A stretch of 64,000 bases of DNA from a virus (taxonomy: Duplodnaviria; Caudoviricetes), in IMG/VR virus record IMGVR_UViG_3300013121_000031, positions 1-64,000 of that record. One strand, 5' to 3'. Positions 24,943 to 30,105 of this stretch are shown piece after piece (the first letter of the stretch is position 1; every line of letters starts with the position of its first letter). A program made the position numbers and the translations under genes. The notes under the pieces are model-generated. The model did not search any database, was not told the DNA's origin, and saw nothing but the letters and a program-made list of their open reading frames with translations.

Positions 24943-25823
24943 AATCCTTTATCCCTTCCTTCGTAAAAACAGTCAAACAAAAATTCAAGAACATAGTGAG
25001 GCATTGCACAAGCTAGAAAGATTTTGGTTCCATACATTCTTTCTAAATCAAGCGCTTGTTTTATCCGTGCATAATTGTTTATTCGATCAGCTGTATTTTT
25101 AATATCATGTTTTGATATCGAAGTCCTCCACGCATCAGATTTTCCAAGTTTTTTGACATCTTCCCACGTAGCTCCAACCTTCAGTAATTTATCAACAAGC
25201 TCCTTGTCCGGCTTTTCAATAAACTGATTTTTGTTAGCGTTAGTGATTCTCATTGTTTTTGGGTCATAAACAGCCATGTTCCCAAATCTTCGTAATGAAT
25301 TCCAACTTGAACTATCTACAGATTCTGGACGGTAGTATTTAACAAATGATGTATTAGTAAAGCCAAGCCAATGAACTCTTCGTTTGCCATTTTGGTTCAT
25401 AAACCATCTTAAATACGCATCGTTCTTTCCACCAATTGCAATTCCACCGAACATAATGTAGTCGGTGTAACTGTATAAATCTTCAAGTCTTGATGATGTT
25501 TCTCCACGAGTAAATACTGGCATTACGTCATACCCACGCTTATTCATGGTCAAGAAGTTTTGATATGACTGGTGAGGGTCTCCATACACATCAAGCTGAA
25601 CAGCATGAAAAGGTCTTAAATCTGAGATCGCATCTAGAAATCTGCAATACTCATCAAGATCAATCTGCAAGCCAGTATTCCAAGCTGAAAACGCCCCAGA
25701 ATCAACAATTAATCGATAATCTTCTTTAGGGGTCTTTCGTAAAAACTCTATCCAGTTCTCAGAAAAGTATGGATAAGCAATTAGAACGTTAAGCGGTTGT
25801 TTGCCTTTAACTAATTGTGACAT
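24936..25823 (-). CDS. TGT/DpdA-like 7-deazaguanine transglycosylase
   Basis: [32 protein letters not shown]; no C-terminal Zn site of the bacterial TGT type seen. Confidence 0.75.
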
Positions 25824-26388
25824 CGGTGATTTTAGCTCCGTCTATTGCTTTTCGCAGGAGTGTGACTAGCTCACCTTTTACGGACTGTTCACATTCCACG
25901 GTTATCTTGGCCTTTGCTTTGTCATCTGAAGGAACAACCTTCTCGACTTTTGAGATATCACTATCCCAATTTTCATCCATCATAATTGAAAGTTCATAAT
26001 CTGAGAACCCTAAGAGATTCAAATCATACTGCATTTCTTCAAGAGAGAGAATTTCATCTCTTAATAGCACTGCATCCCAATCAGCATTAAGAGCCAATTT
26101 ATTGTCAGCAATAACATAAGCTCTTTTTTGAGCCTCAGATAGTCCCTTTGCAACAATACAAGGAACTTCAGTTATCCCTAGTTTTTTAGCAGCTTGAGAG
26201 CGAGCATGCCCAGCCAAAATAATGTTTTTCTCGTCAATAAGAATTGGAGAAGTCCATCCAAATTCTTTTATTGAGTTGCAAACTTGTTCAATTTGCTCAG
26301 TCGTGTGAGTTCTTGAATTTTTACTATACGGTTTCAGTTCAGCCAAAGGCTTAGTAACTATCTGTAGCCGTTCTTTTGACACTTTCAT
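25807..26388 (-). CDS. ParB/Srx N-terminal domain protein
   Basis: LKPY.KNSRTH..QI..SIKEFGWTSPILID...AGH.R..AYVIADNKLA...WD. Confidence 0.88.
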   Translation of the reverse strand: MKVSKERLQIVTKPLAELKPYSKNSRTHTTEQIEQVCNSIKEFGWTSPILIDEKNIILAGHARSQAAKKLGITEVPCIVAKGLSEAQKRAYVIADNKLALNADWDAVLLRDEILSLEEMQYDLNLLGFSDYELSIMMDENWDSDISKVEKVVPSDDKAKAKITVECEQSVKGELVTLLRKAIDGAKITDVTIS

Positions 26389-27002
26389 TAATGCATCCCC
26401 ATCCACTCTTTGCATACTGTCACAAGAGCCTCAGATTCTGATAACTCAGCACCATCATGCTCTCTAACACGATTAATGGCACTCATAACAACCAAATACT
26501 GATTTTGACTTAAAAGAATGGCTTTGTCTTTCTTTCCATTTGGCATTCTTCTTGATTTTTTAGGAGCATCTTCTTCTTTTGGGTCGAGATTATCAATGCT
26601 CCAATCTTGATAAAGCAATGATTCAAGTTCAACTGGAGAGAATGATAGATTGAATATTTCAGTAGTAACATCAAGCTCCTTAAGCTCAATCTGCAAAGCT
26701 TCGGGGTTCCACATTGTTTTTTCAGAGATCTTATTATCTAAGATTCGATATTCACGAATTTGCTTTGGAGTTAAATTGTCTACTTTTACACAAGGAACTT
26801 CAGTAAGTTCTAGAAACTTGGCAGCCATCAATCTCGTATGCCCAACAATTACTTCATTATCAGGACCAGTGACTACTAAAGGTTGCTGCCATCCATATGA
26901 TTTAATTGACTCTGCTAATGCCTCGATTGCTGACATTGGGATTGAACGAGGATTGTTGTGGTAGGGAGTGATTTGATTAATATCGATCCAATTGATATTC
27001 AT
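26388..27002 (-). CDS. ParB/Srx N-terminal domain protein
   Basis: PYHNNPR..SIKSYGWQQPLVV..VGHTR..YRILDNK..E..WN. Confidence 0.88.
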   Translation of the reverse strand: MNINWIDINQITPYHNNPRSIPMSAIEALAESIKSYGWQQPLVVTGPDNEVIVGHTRLMAAKFLELTEVPCVKVDNLTPKQIREYRILDNKISEKTMWNPEALQIELKELDVTTEIFNLSFSPVELESLLYQDWSIDNLDPKEEDAPKKSRRMPNGKKDKAILLSQNQYLVVMSAINRVREHDGAELSESEALVTVCKEWMGMH

Positions 27003-27361
27003 TATTTGTCTCTCATCCAGTTAGGAGCATGTTTTTCAAGGTAGAACATAGCTGCTTCTAGTTTTTTGCTATCTACGTCTTTTCCTTGAATTGTTTGAAT
27101 AACAATTGCGGCGCACGATTGCTGAACTCTTGCCTTCCCGCGAACTATGGCCGTCTTAAATTGGGGGTCCTCAGCCATTCTTTGTTCAAATTCAGCAACC
27201 GTGCAATCTAAAAGAGCACATATAGAAGCTCGATCTAGCCTAGCCGCTCCAAATGTCTCTAATTGATTTATATATTTTTCGTCCAAAACTTCGGGAATTG
27301 CCGAAGTTGGAGTACTTGCCGCAACTATTTTTTTCTTAGTGTTACCAATGTTCTTCTTCAT
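27002..27361 (-). CDS. Terminase small subunit-like HTH protein
   Basis: ICALLDC..FKTAIVRGKA..AAMFYLEKHAPNW. Confidence 0.5.
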   Translation of the reverse strand: MKKNIGNTKKKIVAASTPTSAIPEVLDEKYINQLETFGAARLDRASICALLDCTVAEFEQRMAEDPQFKTAIVRGKARVQQSCAAIVIQTIQGKDVDSKKLEAAMFYLEKHAPNWMRDK

Positions 27362-27396
27362 AACGATATCTTATCACCAGTAACATTATTATTCAA

Positions 27397-27699
27397 TCAT
27401 GGTTTCCATAACGGGAAGTTAGATAGAAATCTTCGCTTCTCATGATAGATTCCTTCAGTAGCAACACAAGTCAAACCTAGATTGTCATCAGGCTCATCAT
27501 GAAATTCATATTTGATGTTCTTTAGTTTGAGTAGATCAATTACTTTTAAAAGAGCTTGTTTATCAGCTACTTGTAAAAGAACCAAATTGCACCCTTCAGG
27601 CAGAGCAAATGATTTTCCGGCTAAGGCACTTGCATGCGACACTTGGCACATAGCATCAGCATGACTTAGATCTTTTCTGACAAAAACGTAATAATACAT
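27397..27699 (-). CDS. Phage peptidyl-tRNA hydrolase (PTH2-like)
   Basis: YVFVRKDL...CQVSHA...LVLLQV...F.DEPD...LTCVAT...PLW; GGAGG at 27708-27712 before ATG 27699. Confidence 0.75.
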   Translation of the reverse strand: MYYYVFVRKDLSHADAMCQVSHASALAGKSFALPEGCNLVLLQVADKQALLKVIDLLKLKNIKYEFHDEPDDNLGLTCVATEGIYHEKRRFLSNFPLWKP

Positions 27700-27779
27700 A
27701 TAAAAATCCTCCATAAATGACTACGAAACAGAGTCATAAATGGAGGATCTTTATTTTGATTGTCGCAAATCTACGTCAT
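27666..27779 (-). promoter_or_regulatory. Leader ORF with amber codon 3, plus hairpin sequestering the pth SD
   Basis: ATG ACG TAG ATT TGC GAC AAT CAA AAT AAA GAT CCT CCA...TAA; hairpin 27700-27754. Confidence 0.65.
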
Positions 27780-27878
27780 TTTGTTACCGAACTTTTAAAA
27801 ATGGCCCCCCTCTTTACCTTTCGATATCGAGAGGGATAAATGTTGCGGGTGATTAGCTATTAACTTTTCACCCGCATA

Positions 27879-27957
27879 TGGTGCCTGAGACGAGGATCTA
27901 ACTCGCATATCTCCGGTTTAGAATCGGTACCTGCATCTATTTGAGGAACACTCAGGC
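27879..27957 (-). tRNA. Amber-anticodon tRNA (CTA), non-canonical
   Basis: Acceptor GCCTGAG/CTCAGGC-ACCA; CCG-ATTCTAAAC-CGG centred on CTA (27919-21); T-arm GCGAG-TTAGATC-CTCGT. Confidence 0.7.
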
Positions 27958-28007
27958 AAGTTCTAATGACTTAATTGAATCATGGCTAAATTTAATTGTC
28001 AAATTAG

Positions 28008-28058
28008 TTGATTACTTATAGTTTTCTATTATAATAGTATTGTAGTTAAGGAGAACGA
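28008..28058 (+). promoter_or_regulatory. Conserved early promoter plus RBS
   Basis: TTGATTACTTATAGTTTTCTATTATAATAGTATTGTAGTTAAGGAGAACG. Confidence 0.75.
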
Positions 28059-28062
28059 CGCA

Positions 28063-28290
28063 ATGACCAAACCAGAATTACAAGAACTTACTTTAATGCT
28101 TGATAAAGCCGCAAAAATTAAAGTACATCCAAAAGATAGAAGTTCAAAACGAGCCATAGAAGAATTTGAAGCTCTAAGTTATGCACTAAAAACTAATCCT
28201 GATCTATATACCAGTTCCAGTATGCACAAAGTATTAGTAAGCACAAAAAACCAAGTAGCAAAAGTTTTAAAAGATGCCGAAATCTCATAG
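28063..28290 (+). CDS. Hypothetical early protein
   Basis: First ORF after the promoter. Confidence 0.6.
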   Translation: MTKPELQELTLMLDKAAKIKVHPKDRSSKRAIEEFEALSYALKTNPDLYTSSSMHKVLVSTKNQVAKVLKDAEIS

Positions 28291-28303
28291 GAGAACGACA
28301 CCA

Positions 28304-28462
28304 ATGATCTATTTAAAGAGTTTTGATGTTATGTGGGAAACACTCTATAAAATAGAAGGTCAAAAATTTAGTTCTTTTACTGGTTTGAGTGGAGCAACTA
28401 TTGTAATTAAAGGCACTTTTGTTTATAGAAGCTTAAAAGGAGAACATCAGTATGTCTACTAA
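28304..28462 (+). CDS. Hypothetical early protein
   Basis: TAGGAGAACG RBS. Confidence 0.5.
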   Translation: MIYLKSFDVMWETLYKIEGQKFSSFTGLSGATIVIKGTFVYRSLKGEHQYVY

Positions 28463-28697
28463 GAAAAAACCAATCACCGCAACCAAACTTGATTTGCAAA
28501 GCGCGGCTAGTGGAGACAATCAGTCACCACAATACTCATTTTGGTTAGTCAGCCCGAAAAATGGCAACCAACTTGAAATAGCCATCGGAGTATTTCCAAA
28601 TCAAGTTCCAGAACAGAACAAACAACACATTCAAGAGGCTTTTGACCATATGGTTGATTCAATTGGATTTGAATTGTCACGATTTGTGGTTAAGTAA
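28452..28697 (+). CDS. Hypothetical early protein
   Basis: AAGGAGAAC RBS. Confidence 0.55.
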   Translation: MSTKKKPITATKLDLQSAASGDNQSPQYSFWLVSPKNGNQLEIAIGVFPNQVPEQNKQHIQEAFDHMVDSIGFELSRFVVK

Positions 28698-28698
28698 A

Positions 28699-29199
28699 AT
28701 GGGAACTGACTGCACAATAAGAATAAAAGATCAAAAGGGTAAAGTTCTATGCCGTCTGTGGAGATTGTATGATGGCTACCCGCTTCATATTGGCAAAATC
28801 ATCGCTGAGTACTTAAAAGACAGTGAATTGGTCGAGGGTTTTGATAACAAAATGGATAACCCTAGATATTTTCACGGAATGGGGGATTTGGCAGCGAGTC
28901 TTATAAGTCACTTAAAAAATTGGAAAGATCCACGTTATGAGATCAAACATGATGAGGATGAGTACATTAAAACGTTCTATGCAGCAATGAATAGAACAAT
29001 CAGCAAAATACAAGTTGATCTACCAATAGATAAAGGTGGCGCTTGCTGGGATTACACCATATATGTCGGTGATAAAGGTCAAATTTGCCTTCTAGTCGAA
29101 GGGGGAGAGGTCGATTTCAATGATGACATCTCAAAATTTAACGCTGATGAGTTCGATAAAGCAAATTCTTATGATGAAGATGACGAAGATGATGAATGA
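28699..29199 (+). CDS. Conserved hypothetical phage protein
   Basis: MGT...YDGYP..G..GMGDLAASLI; acidic tail. Confidence 0.6.
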   Translation: MGTDCTIRIKDQKGKVLCRLWRLYDGYPLHIGKIIAEYLKDSELVEGFDNKMDNPRYFHGMGDLAASLISHLKNWKDPRYEIKHDEDEYIKTFYAAMNRTISKIQVDLPIDKGGACWDYTIYVGDKGQICLLVEGGEVDFNDDISKFNADEFDKANSYDEDDEDDE

Positions 29200-29319
29200 A
29201 AATCAAAATACAAAGCATAAATGGAAATTACTTGGAACTGACGTTTTTCCATTCTTATACCACTGCAATTTTTGCGGGTTTTTGACTACTTCACCCTTTG
29301 TCAGTAAGTGCGAAGCAAG

Positions 29320-30105
29320 TTATTCTCTAGGATCACCCTCTAAGAAGGCTCCAAAGGCGTCAAAAACTGCTTCCGATGTTTTAGGACCGGCAACCCCATC
29401 CTCTAACAGTTTTACAGTCAAAAACTGATTTAAAAATCGCTGCAAAGCCAAAATTTCATCACTTTTGTTCTTTGGATCATATTTGAAAGTTGTAGAATGC
29501 ATTTTGCCCTCTTGAATTAATAACTCATGTAAAAGAACAGCCGAACCGACTTGCTGGGATACTGCATCTTTGTCAAAAACATGGTCTCTAATATACTTCC
29601 CTTTGGTATAGTGCTGTGAACATGACCAAAGATATGGAGAATTTACGCCATATTGCCTATACCCATACCCATTGAATGACTCAAGCCTGAAAAGCATCAT
29701 TGGTATTGACCAATCTTGTTGATTAATCAGTCCTTTGAGTGCAAGTGCATCTAATGCAGACTCTTCCCATGTATATAATTTGCCATCTTTTGGCGGAGCA
29801 AGAGGTCTCCCCTTTGGAACCCTAACAGTCCTAGCGAATTTCATTTGTTTGGTCTTTTTATCAAGCACATTCAAAGGGTCACCATTATGTAAATGCCCTT
29901 TGAATGCAAAACTGGTTTCTTCCAAAGCTTGAATCAACCCAATAAAGTACCAAGGAACCCCAGTTTTTTGAGAAATGGCTGAATATTTGGACCGATTTTG
30001 TCTAATTTTTGAAACAAGCTCAACTACGGTTGCCGCTTTCTTAGTTATTCGACAACTTTTGAACAATTTTTCGTATTGTTGTTTGACTTCTGGGGTGTAC
30101 TTCAT
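29320..30105 (-). CDS. Endolysin (lysozyme-family, COG5526-like) with C-terminal PG-binding motif
   Basis: HLHNGDPL, VPKGRP, TWEESA, ESFNGYGY, SPYLWS; LQRFLN..EDGVAGPKT. Confidence 0.85.
   Translation of the reverse strand: MKYTPEVKQQYEKLFKSCRITKKAATVVELVSKIRQNRSKYSAISQKTGVPWYFIGLIQALEETSFAFKGHLHNGDPLNVLDKKTKQMKFARTVRVPKGRPLAPPKDGKLYTWEESALDALALKGLINQQDWSIPMMLFRLESFNGYGYRQYGVNSPYLWSCSQHYTKGKYIRDHVFDKDAVSQQVGSAVLLHELLIQEGKMHSTTFKYDPKNKSDEILALQRFLNQFLTVKLLEDGVAGPKTSEAVFDAFGAFLEGDPRE

What the first reader, a model, noticed from the sequence alone, without database searches (positions are those of the whole stretch)
27397..28002. Amber tRNA, amber-interrupted leader peptide and SD-hiding hairpin controlling a peptidyl-tRNA hydrolase
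Seen, minus strand in order: TTGACA (27997-28002); a CUA-anticodon tRNA with CCA (27957-27879); two hairpins (~27844-27876, ~27807-27835); a leader ORF from 27779 reading M-T-amber-I-C-D-N-Q-N-K-D-P-P... to TAA at 27666; a long hairpin (27754-27700: ~15 bp, UU/UU, 6 bp) whose 5' arm is the Asp-Pro-Pro codons (GAUCCUCCAU) and whose 3' arm holds the GGAGG SD right up to the pth ATG (27699). A ribosome stopping at codon 3 is 17 nt short of the stem; one reading through would pause at DPP (a known stalling motif) on the anti-SD arm and free the SD. Known: two-codon minigenes such as lambda bar cause peptidyl-tRNA drop-off that requires Pth. Inference: a self-contained sensor in which suppressor tRNA versus RF1 competition switches on phage Pth. 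The rest of the window uses TAG as stop, so the tRNA looks regulatory rather than recoding.
Basis: partly seen in the sequence, partly recalled or inferred. Interest (0 to 1): 0.92.

Follow-up and report, generated by a model that had tools for sequence, protein, structure and literature searches.

The report
Amber-gated leader controlling phage Pth2-like gene
A complete 111-kb sludge phage that uses the normal genetic code places, behind its own odd UAG-reading tRNA, a two-codon mini-gene ending in UAG; reading through that stop would park a ribosome on a Pro-Pro motif and uncover the hidden ribosome-binding site of a peptidyl-tRNA-hydrolase-like gene, a lock-and-key design that dozens of other phages keep and that I could not find in the literature.

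Summary
Its reading is largely supported by comparison with about 110 related loci, not by experiment.

The ORF has a Pth2 fold, but the canonical catalytic Lys aligns to Asp. Standard tools do not call the CUA tRNA here. Its ortholog in a related contig is a bona fide tRNA (Rfam 40.9 bits), and the stems differ by compensatory changes.

Of 43 assessable clusters (70% identity), 32 carry an early suppressible stop. It lies either in frame near the start of the gene or, as here, in a short upstream ORF before a hairpin that hides the Shine-Dalgarno. The stop always matches the anticodon of the suppressor tRNA in the locus (17 UAG/CUA, 4 UGA/UCA, no mismatch).

Read-through peptides carry in-frame [RK]xPP, mostly RAPP, a published ribosome-arrest motif. 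This window has KDPP, whose codons form the anti-SD arm.

The genome is not TAG-recoded, so the leader is the tRNA's only evident target. Two doubts are specific to this window: the tRNA is degraded (3-bp anticodon stem) and the motif has Lys instead of Arg.

This scan has noted the same cassette on many other genomes. I found no publication describing it.

The parts
27974..28002 (-). Sigma-70-like promoter: TTGACA (28002..27997), 17-nt spacer, TTCAAT (27979..27974). It lies about 16 nt upstream of the tRNA 5' end.
   Evidence: Read directly. The consensus scan did not list it. TTGACA-17-TTTAAT and TTGACA-17-TATAAT occupy the same position in L001 and L009.
27879..27957 (-). Non-canonical tRNA-derived RNA with a CUA anticodon loop (UUCUAAA), 7-bp acceptor stem, A73 and encoded CCA. 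The T-loop is UUAGAUC, the D-loop lacks GG, there is a 2-nt insertion after position 9, and the anticodon stem has only 3 Watson-Crick pairs.
   Evidence: ARAGORN and Rfam do not call it. Its ortholog in L002/L001 scores 40.9 bits with Rfam tRNA, and the L060 homolog 57.8 bits. Against L001, three stem pairs differ by changes on both sides that keep the pair.
27845..27875 (-). Hairpin 1: 8-bp stem GCGGGUGA/UCACCCGC with a 15-nt loop, directly after the tRNA CCA.
   Evidence: A hairpin sits at the same place in L060.
27802..27835 (-). Hairpin 2 (CCCUCU/AGAGGG) followed by GGGCCA and an AU-rich tract. It looks like an acceptor/T minihelix ending in NCCA, possibly the remnant of a second tRNA.
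   Evidence: The 3' end resembles the end of the L003 tRNA, GGGGGCCA plus AUUUUAAAAG. L008 has a degenerate tRNA-like element in the same place.
27771..27779 (-). Two-codon mini-gene ATG ACG TAG: the amber gate.
   Evidence: Orthologous mini-genes are ATG CTG TAG (L001), ATG ACA TAG (L060) and ATG TAC TGA behind a UCA tRNA (L003).
27741..27770 (-). Read-through codons I-C-D-N-Q-N-K-D-P-P. K-D-P-P lies at 27752..27741, with 8 codons between the stop and the first Pro. GAU CCU CCA is also the anti-SD.
   Evidence: The 8-codon spacing is the family mode, and [RK]xPP is in frame in 23 of 39 leaders against 0 and 1 in the other frames.
27700..27754 (-). SD-sequestering hairpin (15 bp, UU/UU internal loop, 6 bp) that pairs everything from -55 to -1 of the start codon. 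It includes GGAGGA (27712..27707) and the following U-run, so its shape is terminator-like.
   Evidence: -30.2 kcal/mol, z = -6.4. Equivalent hairpins occur in L001, L060, L003 and L007 with compensating changes, CCUCC/GGAGG against CCCCC/GGGGG. The terminator scan did not call it.
27397..27699 (-). 100-aa Pth2-fold protein gene, ATG at 27699.
   Evidence: AlphaFold pLDDT 96.8. Foldseek TM about 0.8 to archaeal and human Pth2 structures. Pfam PTH2 reaches only 13.8 bits against a cut-off of 23. 25 of 59 family members hit PF01981. The family profile against PDB Pth2 gives E = 1e-5.
27666..27668 (-). TAA that ends the read-through frame of the leader, 33 nt into the Pth2-like ORF in another frame.

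Best explanation
The stretch is one transcription unit: promoter, tRNA(CUA), two processing-type hairpins, leader, then the Pth2-like gene.

Proposed mechanism:
1. By default the long hairpin hides the Shine-Dalgarno and the bases up to the start codon, and may also terminate transcription. The gene is therefore off.
2. Ribosomes that start on the mini-gene ATG ACG UAG normally terminate at codon 3. There their leading edge is still about 7 nt short of the stem.
3. If the phage's own CUA tRNA decodes the UAG, the ribosome runs eight codons further onto K-D-P-P. These codons are the anti-SD arm, and the motif is a weakened form of the RxPP arrest motif.
4. The ribosome lingers there, the hairpin stays open, and a second ribosome can start on the Pth2-like gene.

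The Pth2-like protein would thus be made only when, and in proportion as, amber suppression is active.

Shown: the anatomy, the fold of the protein, the conservation and the covariation across phages.
Inferred: that the tRNA is made, charged and reads UAG; that KDPP stalls the ribosome; that stalling opens the hairpin; and what the protein does.

My guess for the protein's role is recycling or limiting of peptidyl- or aminoacyl-tRNA that arises when stops are read through. That would be either a feed-forward supply or an RF2-like feedback.
For: Anatomy and fold energies.

Orthologs:
- L001/L002 (56% protein identity) and L060 (49%) keep the promoter, the CUA tRNA, ATG-NNN-TAG, exactly 8 codons, then xCCUCCx read as Pro-Pro, pairing with the SD.
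- L003 has a UCA tRNA and ATG TAC TGA.

Family survey of 109 loci, 44 clusters at 70% identity:
- 19 (+3 ambiguous) have an in-frame TAG and 1 an in-frame TGA, 2-11 codons before the conserved YxYVFVR. In the 20 unambiguous clusters no start codon lies between.
- 41 of 51 distinct in-frame leaders have an SD before the pre-stop ATG.
- 9 clusters are of the upstream-ORF type.
- The gene body has only 2 TAG in 86 distinct proteins x 92 codons.

Stop against anticodon: 17 TAG/CUA, 4 TGA/UCA, 0 mismatches.

Swapped-stop control:
- Within 40 nt after 44 distinct CUA tRNAs, short ORFs end in TAG 25 times (20 followed by PP), against TGA 2 (0) and TAA 2 (0).
- After 6 UCA tRNAs, they end in TGA 4 times (4 followed by PP), against TAG 0.

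Read-through peptides:
- PP in frame in 27 of 39, against 3 and 3 in the other frames.
- R[ASDGP]PP in 19 of 39, against 0 and 0.
- Pro codons vary synonymously.

Geometry: in 10 lineages the ribosome at the gate stop falls short of the anti-SD, while the ribosome at PP or P-stop covers it.

Literature: RAPP and RGPP are EF-P-refractory arrest motifs; RSPP and RDPP are partly permissive (PMC12992588).

The genome is complete, uses the standard code, and has no other such leader.
Against: - The window's tRNA is not recognised by ARAGORN or Rfam.
- It has a 2-nt insertion before the D arm. Its anticodon stem has only 3 Watson-Crick pairs; pair 27-43, C-G in L001, is A.A here. It may be a poor suppressor or none.
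- The motif is KDPP, not RxPP. In the published arrest peptides Arg is critical (AAPP variants fail), and Lys was not tested.
- The mini-gene has only a weak SD (GGU).
- The hairpin plus U-run could be an ordinary terminator of the tRNA unit.
- There are no RNA data and no experiment.
- 11 of 43 assessable family clusters have no gate.
- TAG ends 20 of 127 long ORFs of the phage itself, so a strong suppressor would carry a cost.
Confidence: 0.6

Rival explanations
1. The logic is the same, but the hairpin acts mainly as an intrinsic terminator. This would be transcription attenuation: a ribosome that reads through UAG close behind RNA polymerase invades the 5' arm and prevents termination. Without read-through the transcript ends before the Pth2-like gene.
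For: In the window-type leaders the stem is followed at once by a U-run: UUUUUAU here, UUUUGU in L001, UUUUUU in L060, UUUUUGUU in L003 and UUUUUAA in L007. It is preceded by an A-run.
Against: - The terminator scan did not call it.
- Other leader types (L008, L009, L119, L121, L133) have anti-SD hairpins without any U-run, so SD masking is the common denominator.
- The U-run is itself paired in the minimum-free-energy fold.
Confidence: 0.3
2. A decaying relic. The tRNA is a pseudogene, the mini-gene is left over from an ancestral in-frame gate, and the hairpin is just the terminator of the tRNA unit. The Pth2-like gene would then be expressed at a basal or otherwise controlled level, with no sensing of suppression in this phage.
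For: - No tRNA call by ARAGORN or Rfam, while the ortholog scores 40.9 bits.
- The 27-43 pair is broken by changes on both sides.
- The motif has Lys instead of Arg.
- The mini-gene has a weak SD.
- No other TAG target exists in the genome.
Against: - Protein identity to L060 is only 49%, yet the mini-gene, the 8-codon spacing, AAUAAAGAUCCUCC and the hairpin are all kept.
- The acceptor and T stems differ from L001 only by compensatory changes.
- The Pth2-like ORF is intact and folds with pLDDT 96.8.
- A permanently closed SD would silence a gene that is evidently under selection.
Confidence: 0.15
3. A bar-type mini-gene. The two-codon ORF provokes dipeptidyl-tRNA drop-off at a slowly terminating stop. 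The leader would then sense, or feed, peptidyl-tRNA hydrolase activity rather than suppressor activity.
For: Two sense codons plus a stop directly upstream of a Pth-like gene. Many relatives also have exactly ATG-NNN-stop. That lambda bar mini-genes are toxic when Pth is limiting is my own knowledge.
Against: Drop-off would not require the stop to match the neighbouring tRNA's anticodon (21 of 21; control). It would not require a frame-specific RxPP motif after the stop. Many gates lie after 4-13 codons, not 2.
Confidence: 0.07
4. TAG is simply a sense codon because the phage is recoded (code 15-like), and the leader is an ordinary short ORF.
For: Phage suppressor tRNAs are best known from recoded phages (10.1101/2021.08.26.457843).
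Against: - The standard code gives 87% coding cover in the complete genome.
- Making TAG a sense codon adds no more cover than making TGA or TAA sense.
- Same-frame ORF pairs joined by one stop number TAG 10, TGA 13, TAA 15.
- There is no excess of early-TAG genes.
- Flanks of related loci show no TAG-specific gain.
- TAG is essentially absent from the bodies of the Pth2-like genes.
Confidence: 0.02

Closest known systems
RAPP/RGPP-type arrest-peptide leaders (ApdA, ApdP, ApcA; SecM with RAGP) that open a hairpin over the next gene's Shine-Dalgarno (PMC12992588, PMC10951233, PMC7897499)
   Same: A short upstream ORF whose nascent R-x-P-P end stalls the ribosome next to or on an anti-SD stem, which frees the downstream ribosome-binding site. 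Relatives of this leader carry RAPP, RSPP, RDPP and RGPP.
   Different: Here the arrest motif lies behind an in-frame stop codon and is reached only by read-through, so the input is suppressor-tRNA activity rather than secretion force. The chain is only about 13 residues long. The window has KDPP, with Lys instead of Arg. The regulated gene is a Pth2-like protein of a phage.
prfB (RF2) autoregulation through an early in-frame UGA (own knowledge)
   Same: An early in-frame stop codon serves as a sensor of the balance between termination and an alternative decoding event, and it controls a translation-factor-type gene. The in-frame-gated relatives resemble this most closely.
   Different: There is no frameshift site. 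The alternative event is decoding by a dedicated tRNA encoded in the same operon. In this window the stop sits in a separate upstream ORF.
Stop-codon-recoded phages with suppressor tRNAs (code 15 or 4; crAss-like, Lak and others; 10.1101/2021.08.26.457843; PMC10879173)
   Same: A phage-encoded suppressor tRNA, and in-frame stops proposed to delay expression until the tRNA is active.
   Different: This genome and the cultured relatives use the standard code. The stop is position-specific, in a leader, rather than spread through late genes. Neither a Pth2-like gene nor a leader switch is mentioned in that preprint (0 hits for peptidyl, hydrolase or Pth).
Pth2 (PF01981) of archaea and eukaryotes, noted in jumbo phages (PMC7824862)
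   Same: The same fold (TM about 0.8) and profile-level sequence relationship.
   Different: The protein is below Pfam's cut-off. The catalytic Lys of the GK motif aligns to Asp15. The review does not link the gene to suppressor tRNAs.
Lambda bar two-codon mini-genes (own knowledge)
   Same: ATG-NNN-stop, and a functional tie to peptidyl-tRNA hydrolase.
   Different: Here the stop type follows the tRNA anticodon, and a conserved peptide motif lies beyond the stop. That argues for read-through rather than drop-off.

Membership tests
Canonical tRNA (Rfam RF00005 / ARAGORN) | Score at or above the Rfam gathering threshold of 29 bits, or an ARAGORN bacterial call | tested here: not met
   No tRNA hit even on a 93-nt search at E<=10. 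ARAGORN makes no call down to a 40% threshold. The ortholog in L002 scores 40.9 bits, L060 57.8 bits and L003 50.2 bits.
Canonical tRNA (Rfam RF00005 / ARAGORN) | 7-bp acceptor stem, discriminator base plus CCA, and a 5-bp T stem | tested here: met
   GCCUGAG/CUCAGGC, A73, CCA, and GCGAG/CUCGU. Against L001 there are compensatory changes at one acceptor pair and two T-stem pairs.
Canonical tRNA (Rfam RF00005 / ARAGORN) | 5-bp anticodon stem, a 7-nt loop with U33 and purine 37, G18G19 in the D-loop, and UUC in the T-loop | tested here: not met
   The loop UUCUAAA is fine. However, the stem has only 3 Watson-Crick pairs (A.A and A.C mismatches), the D-loop lacks GG, the T-loop is UUAGAUC, and two extra bases follow position 9.
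Pth2 peptidyl-tRNA hydrolase (PF01981) | Pfam gathering score of 23 bits | tested here: not met
   13.8 bits, E = 0.07. 25 of 59 family members match PF01981 at E<=0.01, best 6.2e-8.
Pth2 peptidyl-tRNA hydrolase (PF01981) | Pth2 fold | tested here: met
   The model has pLDDT 96.8. The top 13 Foldseek hits are Pth2 structures with TM 0.74-0.82.
Pth2 peptidyl-tRNA hydrolase (PF01981) | Catalytic Lys of the GK motif. That Lys18, Asp86 and Thr90 are catalytic in S. solfataricus Pth2 is my own knowledge. | tested here: not met
   In both profile alignments to solved Pth2 proteins the Lys aligns to the family's conserved Asp15. An EPDDNxGxT motif may stand in for DAGxT, but this was not tested.
RxPP (RAPP-like) arrest-peptide leader | An Arg-x-Pro-Pro core at the stall site | tested here: not met
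   The window has K-D-P-P. Relatives have RAPP 9, RSPP 4, RDPP 2, RGPP 1 and KDPP 2. The papers read here give no test of Lys at the Arg position.
RxPP (RAPP-like) arrest-peptide leader | A stalled ribosome overlaps a stem that sequesters the downstream SD | tested here: met
   The Pro-Pro codons are the anti-SD arm of a -30 kcal/mol hairpin covering the SD through position -1.
RxPP (RAPP-like) arrest-peptide leader | Demonstrated translation arrest | not testable with these tools
   This needs toeprinting or a PURE-system assay.
Stop-codon-recoded phage (code 15) | In-frame TAG in many genes, with better gene models when TAG is read as sense | tested here: not met
Intrinsic terminator | A G+C-rich stem with a short loop, followed by a U-run | tested here: inconclusive
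   A long stem followed by UUUUUAU. The scan did not call it, and the U-run is paired in the minimum-free-energy fold.
Lambda bar-type mini-gene | A two-codon ORF whose expression is toxic when Pth is limiting | not testable with these tools
   The two-codon ORF is present. Toxicity needs a pth(ts) host.

The most novel reading that the evidence does not exclude
This would be a natural, self-contained translational switch that reports whether a stop codon is being read through. The phage's own suppressor tRNA is the key, and a stop-gated arrest leader is the lock. In this small standard-code phage the leader is the tRNA's only evident target. The tRNA would then exist for regulation or host manipulation, together with a Pth2-like enzyme, rather than for recoding of phage genes. 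That would give 'orphan' suppressor tRNAs of standard-code phages a purpose.
Probability: 0.45. Interest if true: 0.9.

Novelty: new variant of a known kind. Interest (0 to 1): 0.8.

Why it matters
Suppressor tRNAs in phages that use the standard code are a recognised puzzle. Genome papers state that no targets are known (PMC9022506; PMC8386662). This locus and its relatives supply a concrete, conserved target and a mechanism that can be tested at the bench.

It would add a new input, tRNA-mediated stop-codon read-through, to the arrest-peptide class of gene switches. It would tie a phage Pth2-like protein functionally to suppression. It also shows that the gene is missed or truncated in GenBank records of cultured jumbo phages.

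A compact 'tRNA key plus leader lock' could also serve as an orthogonal reporter of suppression in synthetic biology.

Tried and rejected
- DNA similarity search of 26000-30000 against phage records found no match.
- The search for related loci with the single protein and with the wide alignments A1 and A2 failed. The narrow alignment A3 worked.
- Exact-pattern scans of IMG/VR for the tRNA found nothing.
- A structural pattern scan (AAAAATCCTCC..GGAGG..CTANNNCAT) returned 31 loci. These made up about 9 sequence families, near the chance expectation, and none had a Pth2-like gene downstream. The scan was uninformative.
- A candidate second amber-gated gene at 86587(-) turned out to be the end of a nuclease-like gene read in another frame.
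- Two further ATG-NNN-TAG...PP matches (32941+, 19717-) lie antisense to tRNA genes. I took them as chance.
- No RF-1 domain, PylS or Gln/Glu-tRNA synthetase gene exists in the genome, so a pyrrolysine system or a phage release factor is not supported.
- Sequencing runs: no RNA holder is listed. The DNA contigs laid on the stretch were identical where they covered it, so no natural variants were learned.
- MAFFT could not align the four tRNAs in register, so I counted stem pairs by eye and did not use the count of structure pairs.
- I noticed a possible HDV-like (theta-ribozyme) fold of the two post-tRNA hairpins, with AAAA pairing to UUUUU as P2. I could not test it, and Rfam gave no ribozyme hit.
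- The claim that a purine always follows the gate stop does not hold for the family: G 28, C 14, A 9.
Full report
**1. What is in the sequence**

- TTGACA (28002..27997), a 17-nt spacer, then TTCAAT.
- A 79-nt tRNA-shaped RNA (27957..27879) with a perfect 7-bp acceptor stem, A73, encoded CCA, a 5-bp T stem and the loop UUCUAAA.
- Two hairpins (27875..27845 and 27835..27808).
- The mini-gene ATG ACG TAG (27779..27771).
- A 55-nt hairpin (27754..27700). Its 5' arm contains GAU CCU CCA. Its 3' arm contains GGAGGA and runs to the base before the ATG of a 100-codon ORF (27699..27397).

The leader is far more structured than chance. The 273 nt fold with z = -6.15. The last 89 nt fold at -30.2 kcal/mol, z = -6.4, and none of 200 shuffles folds as well.

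The window is the first 64 kb of a complete 111,345-bp virus record with direct terminal repeats. It is found in sludge and activated-sludge metagenomes.

**2. The protein**

- Alone it hits Pfam PTH2 at only 13.8 bits, against a cut-off of 23.
- An exhaustive search finds a family of 446 representatives.
- 25 of 59 aligned members match PF01981.
- The family profile finds solved Pth2 proteins at E = 1e-5.
- The AlphaFold model (pLDDT 96.8) superposes on archaeal and human Pth2 with TM about 0.8.

It is therefore a Pth2-fold protein. In both profile alignments, however, the Lys of the canonical GK motif aligns to the family's conserved Asp15. Peptidyl-tRNA hydrolase activity should not be assumed.

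**3. The tRNA**

ARAGORN in bacterial mode, even at lax thresholds, and the Rfam tRNA model both fail to call it. Only ARAGORN's mitochondrial mode does, and that mode makes 27 other spurious calls in this genome.

It is nevertheless not a chance look-alike.
- The contig with the closest Pth2-like protein (L001/L002, 56% identity) has the same element at the same place. It shares an identical 17-nt D region and an identical anticodon loop.
- One acceptor pair and two T-stem pairs differ there by changes on both sides that keep the pair.
- That ortholog scores 40.9 bits with Rfam tRNA. The L060 homolog, which has the same unusual UUAGAU T-loop, scores 57.8 bits.

The window's copy differs from L001's in two ways. 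It has two extra bases after position 9, and the 27-43 pair is lost (A.A instead of C-G). That leaves 3 Watson-Crick pairs in the anticodon stem. It is a degraded, or deliberately weak, member of a real suppressor-tRNA lineage.

**4. The leader in relatives**

I collected 109 loci holding family members and analysed them by script.

*Window-type leaders*
- L001 has ATG CTG TAG, 8 codons, then AGU CCU CCA pairing with GGGGGA.
- L060 has ATG ACA TAG, 8 codons, then GAU CCU CCG.
- L003 has a UCA tRNA and ATG TAC TGA, 9 codons, then AGU CCU CCU.
- All three have an SD-hiding hairpin followed by a U-run.

*Other upstream-ORF leaders*
- L008, L009, L119, L121 and L133/L076 end the read-through frame with P-stop or PP-stop a few bases before an anti-SD stem.

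*In-frame gates*
- In most of the family the stop lies in frame in the gene itself, 2-11 codons before the conserved YxYVFVR.
- The 20 clusters scored as unambiguous have no start codon in between, and there is usually a good SD before the pre-stop ATG (41 of 51 distinct in-frame leaders).
- The L001 mini-gene (ATG CTG TAG GTC CAA C) resembles these in-frame leaders (ATG CTC TAG GTT CAA CC). The two arrangements therefore look like versions of one device.

*The larger class with an intervening gene*
- Here the order is tRNA(CUA), an unknown gene of 150-200 aa, then the in-frame-gated Pth2-like gene.
- The tRNA is followed within about 15 nt by an SD, ATG TTG TAG, a read-through peptide ending in ..RAPP.., and an anti-SD stem for the unknown gene.

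**5. Statistics**

Of 44 clusters at 70% identity, one has too little upstream sequence to assess. Of the other 43, 32 carry a gate:

| Type | Clusters |
|---|---|
| In-frame TAG | 19 (+3 ambiguous) |
| In-frame TGA | 1 |
| Upstream-ORF TAG | 6 |
| Upstream-ORF TGA | 3 |
| No gate | 11 |

- Where both a gate and a suppressor tRNA lie in the locus, they match: 17 TAG/CUA and 4 TGA/UCA, with no mismatch.
- A control with swapped stops is clean. Within 40 nt after 44 distinct CUA tRNAs, short ORFs end in TAG 25 times (20 followed by PP), against TGA 2 and TAA 2 (none followed by PP). After 6 UCA tRNAs, they end in TGA 4 times (all followed by PP), against TAG 0.
- In the read-through peptides PP is in frame in 27 of 39, against 3 and 3 in the other frames. 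[RK]xPP is 23 against 0 and 1. R[ASDGP]PP is 19 against 0 and 0.
- The modal spacing is 8 codons, as in the window, and the Pro codons vary synonymously. The region beyond the stop is therefore under selection as a peptide, so it must be translated.
- The gene bodies hold only 2 TAG in about 7,900 codons. TAG is therefore not a general sense codon in these genes.

**6. Not recoding**

- In the complete genome the standard code gives 87% cover, and reading TAG as sense gains no more than the TGA or TAA controls.
- Same-frame ORF pairs joined by a single stop are not enriched for TAG.
- There is no excess of early-TAG genes, and the one candidate was rejected.
- No other such leader exists in the genome.
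- There is no release factor, PylS or Gln/Glu-tRNA synthetase gene.
- The flanks of related loci show no TAG-specific gain either.

**7. Mechanism**

Geometry supports the model.
- With UAG in the A site, the ribosome's leading edge, about 15 nt from the P-site codon, ends roughly 7 nt before the stem.
- After read-through, the Pro-Pro codons lie inside the 5' arm.
- In the P-stop and PP-stop leaders, the ribosome waiting at the second stop covers the anti-SD.

RAPP and RGPP are published arrest motifs that EF-P does not relieve. RSPP and RDPP retain part of the activity (PMC12992588; PMC10951233).

The most likely reading is a switch: read-through by the phage's own tRNA, then a stall on or next to the anti-SD, then exposure of the SD. 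In the window type, escape from termination at the U-run may add to this.

What the Pth2-like protein then does is unknown. Its consistent coupling to suppressors, and an RF-1-domain gene beside it in L004, suggest that it handles tRNA-linked products of read-through. An RF2-like feedback on suppression is an alternative.

**8. Doubts specific to this window**

- The tRNA is the most degraded of its lineage.
- The motif has Lys where the published motif needs Arg.
- The mini-gene has a poor SD.

Against simple decay, the device is preserved between the window and L060 at 49% protein identity, and the ORF is intact.

**9. What is known**

- Pth2 in jumbo phages has been noted as a putative rescue factor, without any link to suppressors (PMC7824862).
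- The main survey of recoded phages mentions no Pth.
- Seven full-text searches found no description of a stop-gated arrest leader or of an amber-gated Pth2 gene.
- Cultured standard-code phages carry the in-frame gate, and their records miss or truncate the gene. Serratia phage BF has ATG ACG CAC TAG and no annotation there. Ralstonia phage RsoM2USA has ATG TTG TAG and no annotation there. Acinetobacter phage ME3 has ATG ACT TAG, with an annotated CUA tRNA about 450 nt upstream.
- After finishing my own analysis I found that this scan has noted the same cassette and leader in at least 49-63 other genomes. Those are unverified AI notes, and I do not count them as evidence.

**10. Verdict**

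I class it as a new variant of arrest-peptide leader control, with a new input: stop-codon read-through by a dedicated tRNA.

Noticed in passing
window 27802-27875 (-); L008:226-330; L001:2805-2875: The two hairpins between the tRNA and the mini-gene end in GGGCCA plus an AU-rich tract, like the 3' end and trailer of the L003 tRNA. L008 has a degenerate Ser-like tRNA (7-bp acceptor stem, UCCA) in that place. L001 has a 7-bp helix enclosing two GNRA hairpins and ending in ACCA. These may be remnants of a second tRNA or processing minihelices. An HDV-like fold (AAAA pairing with UUUUU) could not be excluded.
   Followed up: partly
L092:1990-2460, L096, L073, L104, L131, L006:586-1188: A conserved 150-200-aa protein (begins MNTLSRAIT.., with a motif HHLLY..L.GKDWRK.FTP.TN) lies between the CUA tRNA and the gated Pth2-like gene in many phages. 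It is itself behind an amber/RAPP leader. It has no Pfam or PHROG match and no homolog in this window's genome.
   Followed up: partly
L004:535-2349: In one relative the CUA tRNA and the Pth2-like gene are flanked by an RNase T-like exonuclease and by a 201-aa protein with PCRF and RF-1 domains. The latter is a truncated release-factor or rescue-factor-like gene.
   Followed up: partly
L102, upstream of the Pth2-like gene: Three tandem ATG-NNN-TAG mini-genes (ATG ATT TAG, ATG TCA TAG, ATG CAG TAG) precede the gene. My classifier scored this locus as having no gate.
   Followed up: no
L141 (Serratia phage BF 286079-286418), L143 (Ralstonia phage RsoM2USA), L142 (Acinetobacter phage ME3): GenBank records of cultured jumbo phages leave the amber-gated Pth2-like gene unannotated, or start it at an internal codon.
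   Followed up: yes
protein P0002 (3413 aa): The top hit of the exhaustive search is a 3413-residue protein with 31 separate matches to residues 32-68 of the query. It is a long repeat protein built from a Pth2-like sub-segment, and I have no explanation for it.
   Followed up: no
window 28008-28035 (+) and 28063-28290 (+): A divergent promoter (TTGATT, 16-nt spacer, TATAAT) faces the other way, toward a 75-aa ORF of unknown function. The 360-nt region is therefore a two-way control region.
   Followed up: no
window 27002-27361 (-), 26388-27002 (-), 25807-26415 (-): Directly downstream of the Pth2-like gene lie a weak TerS-like ORF (PHROG 309, E = 6e-4) and two stand-alone ParB-N proteins. The switch may therefore head a longer operon.
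   Followed up: no
window 32941 (+) and 19717 (-): Two more matches to ATG-NNN-TAG followed by in-frame PP lie antisense to tRNA genes. That makes 3 hits in the genome against 0.6 expected from shuffles. I took them as chance products of tRNA sequence.
   Followed up: partly
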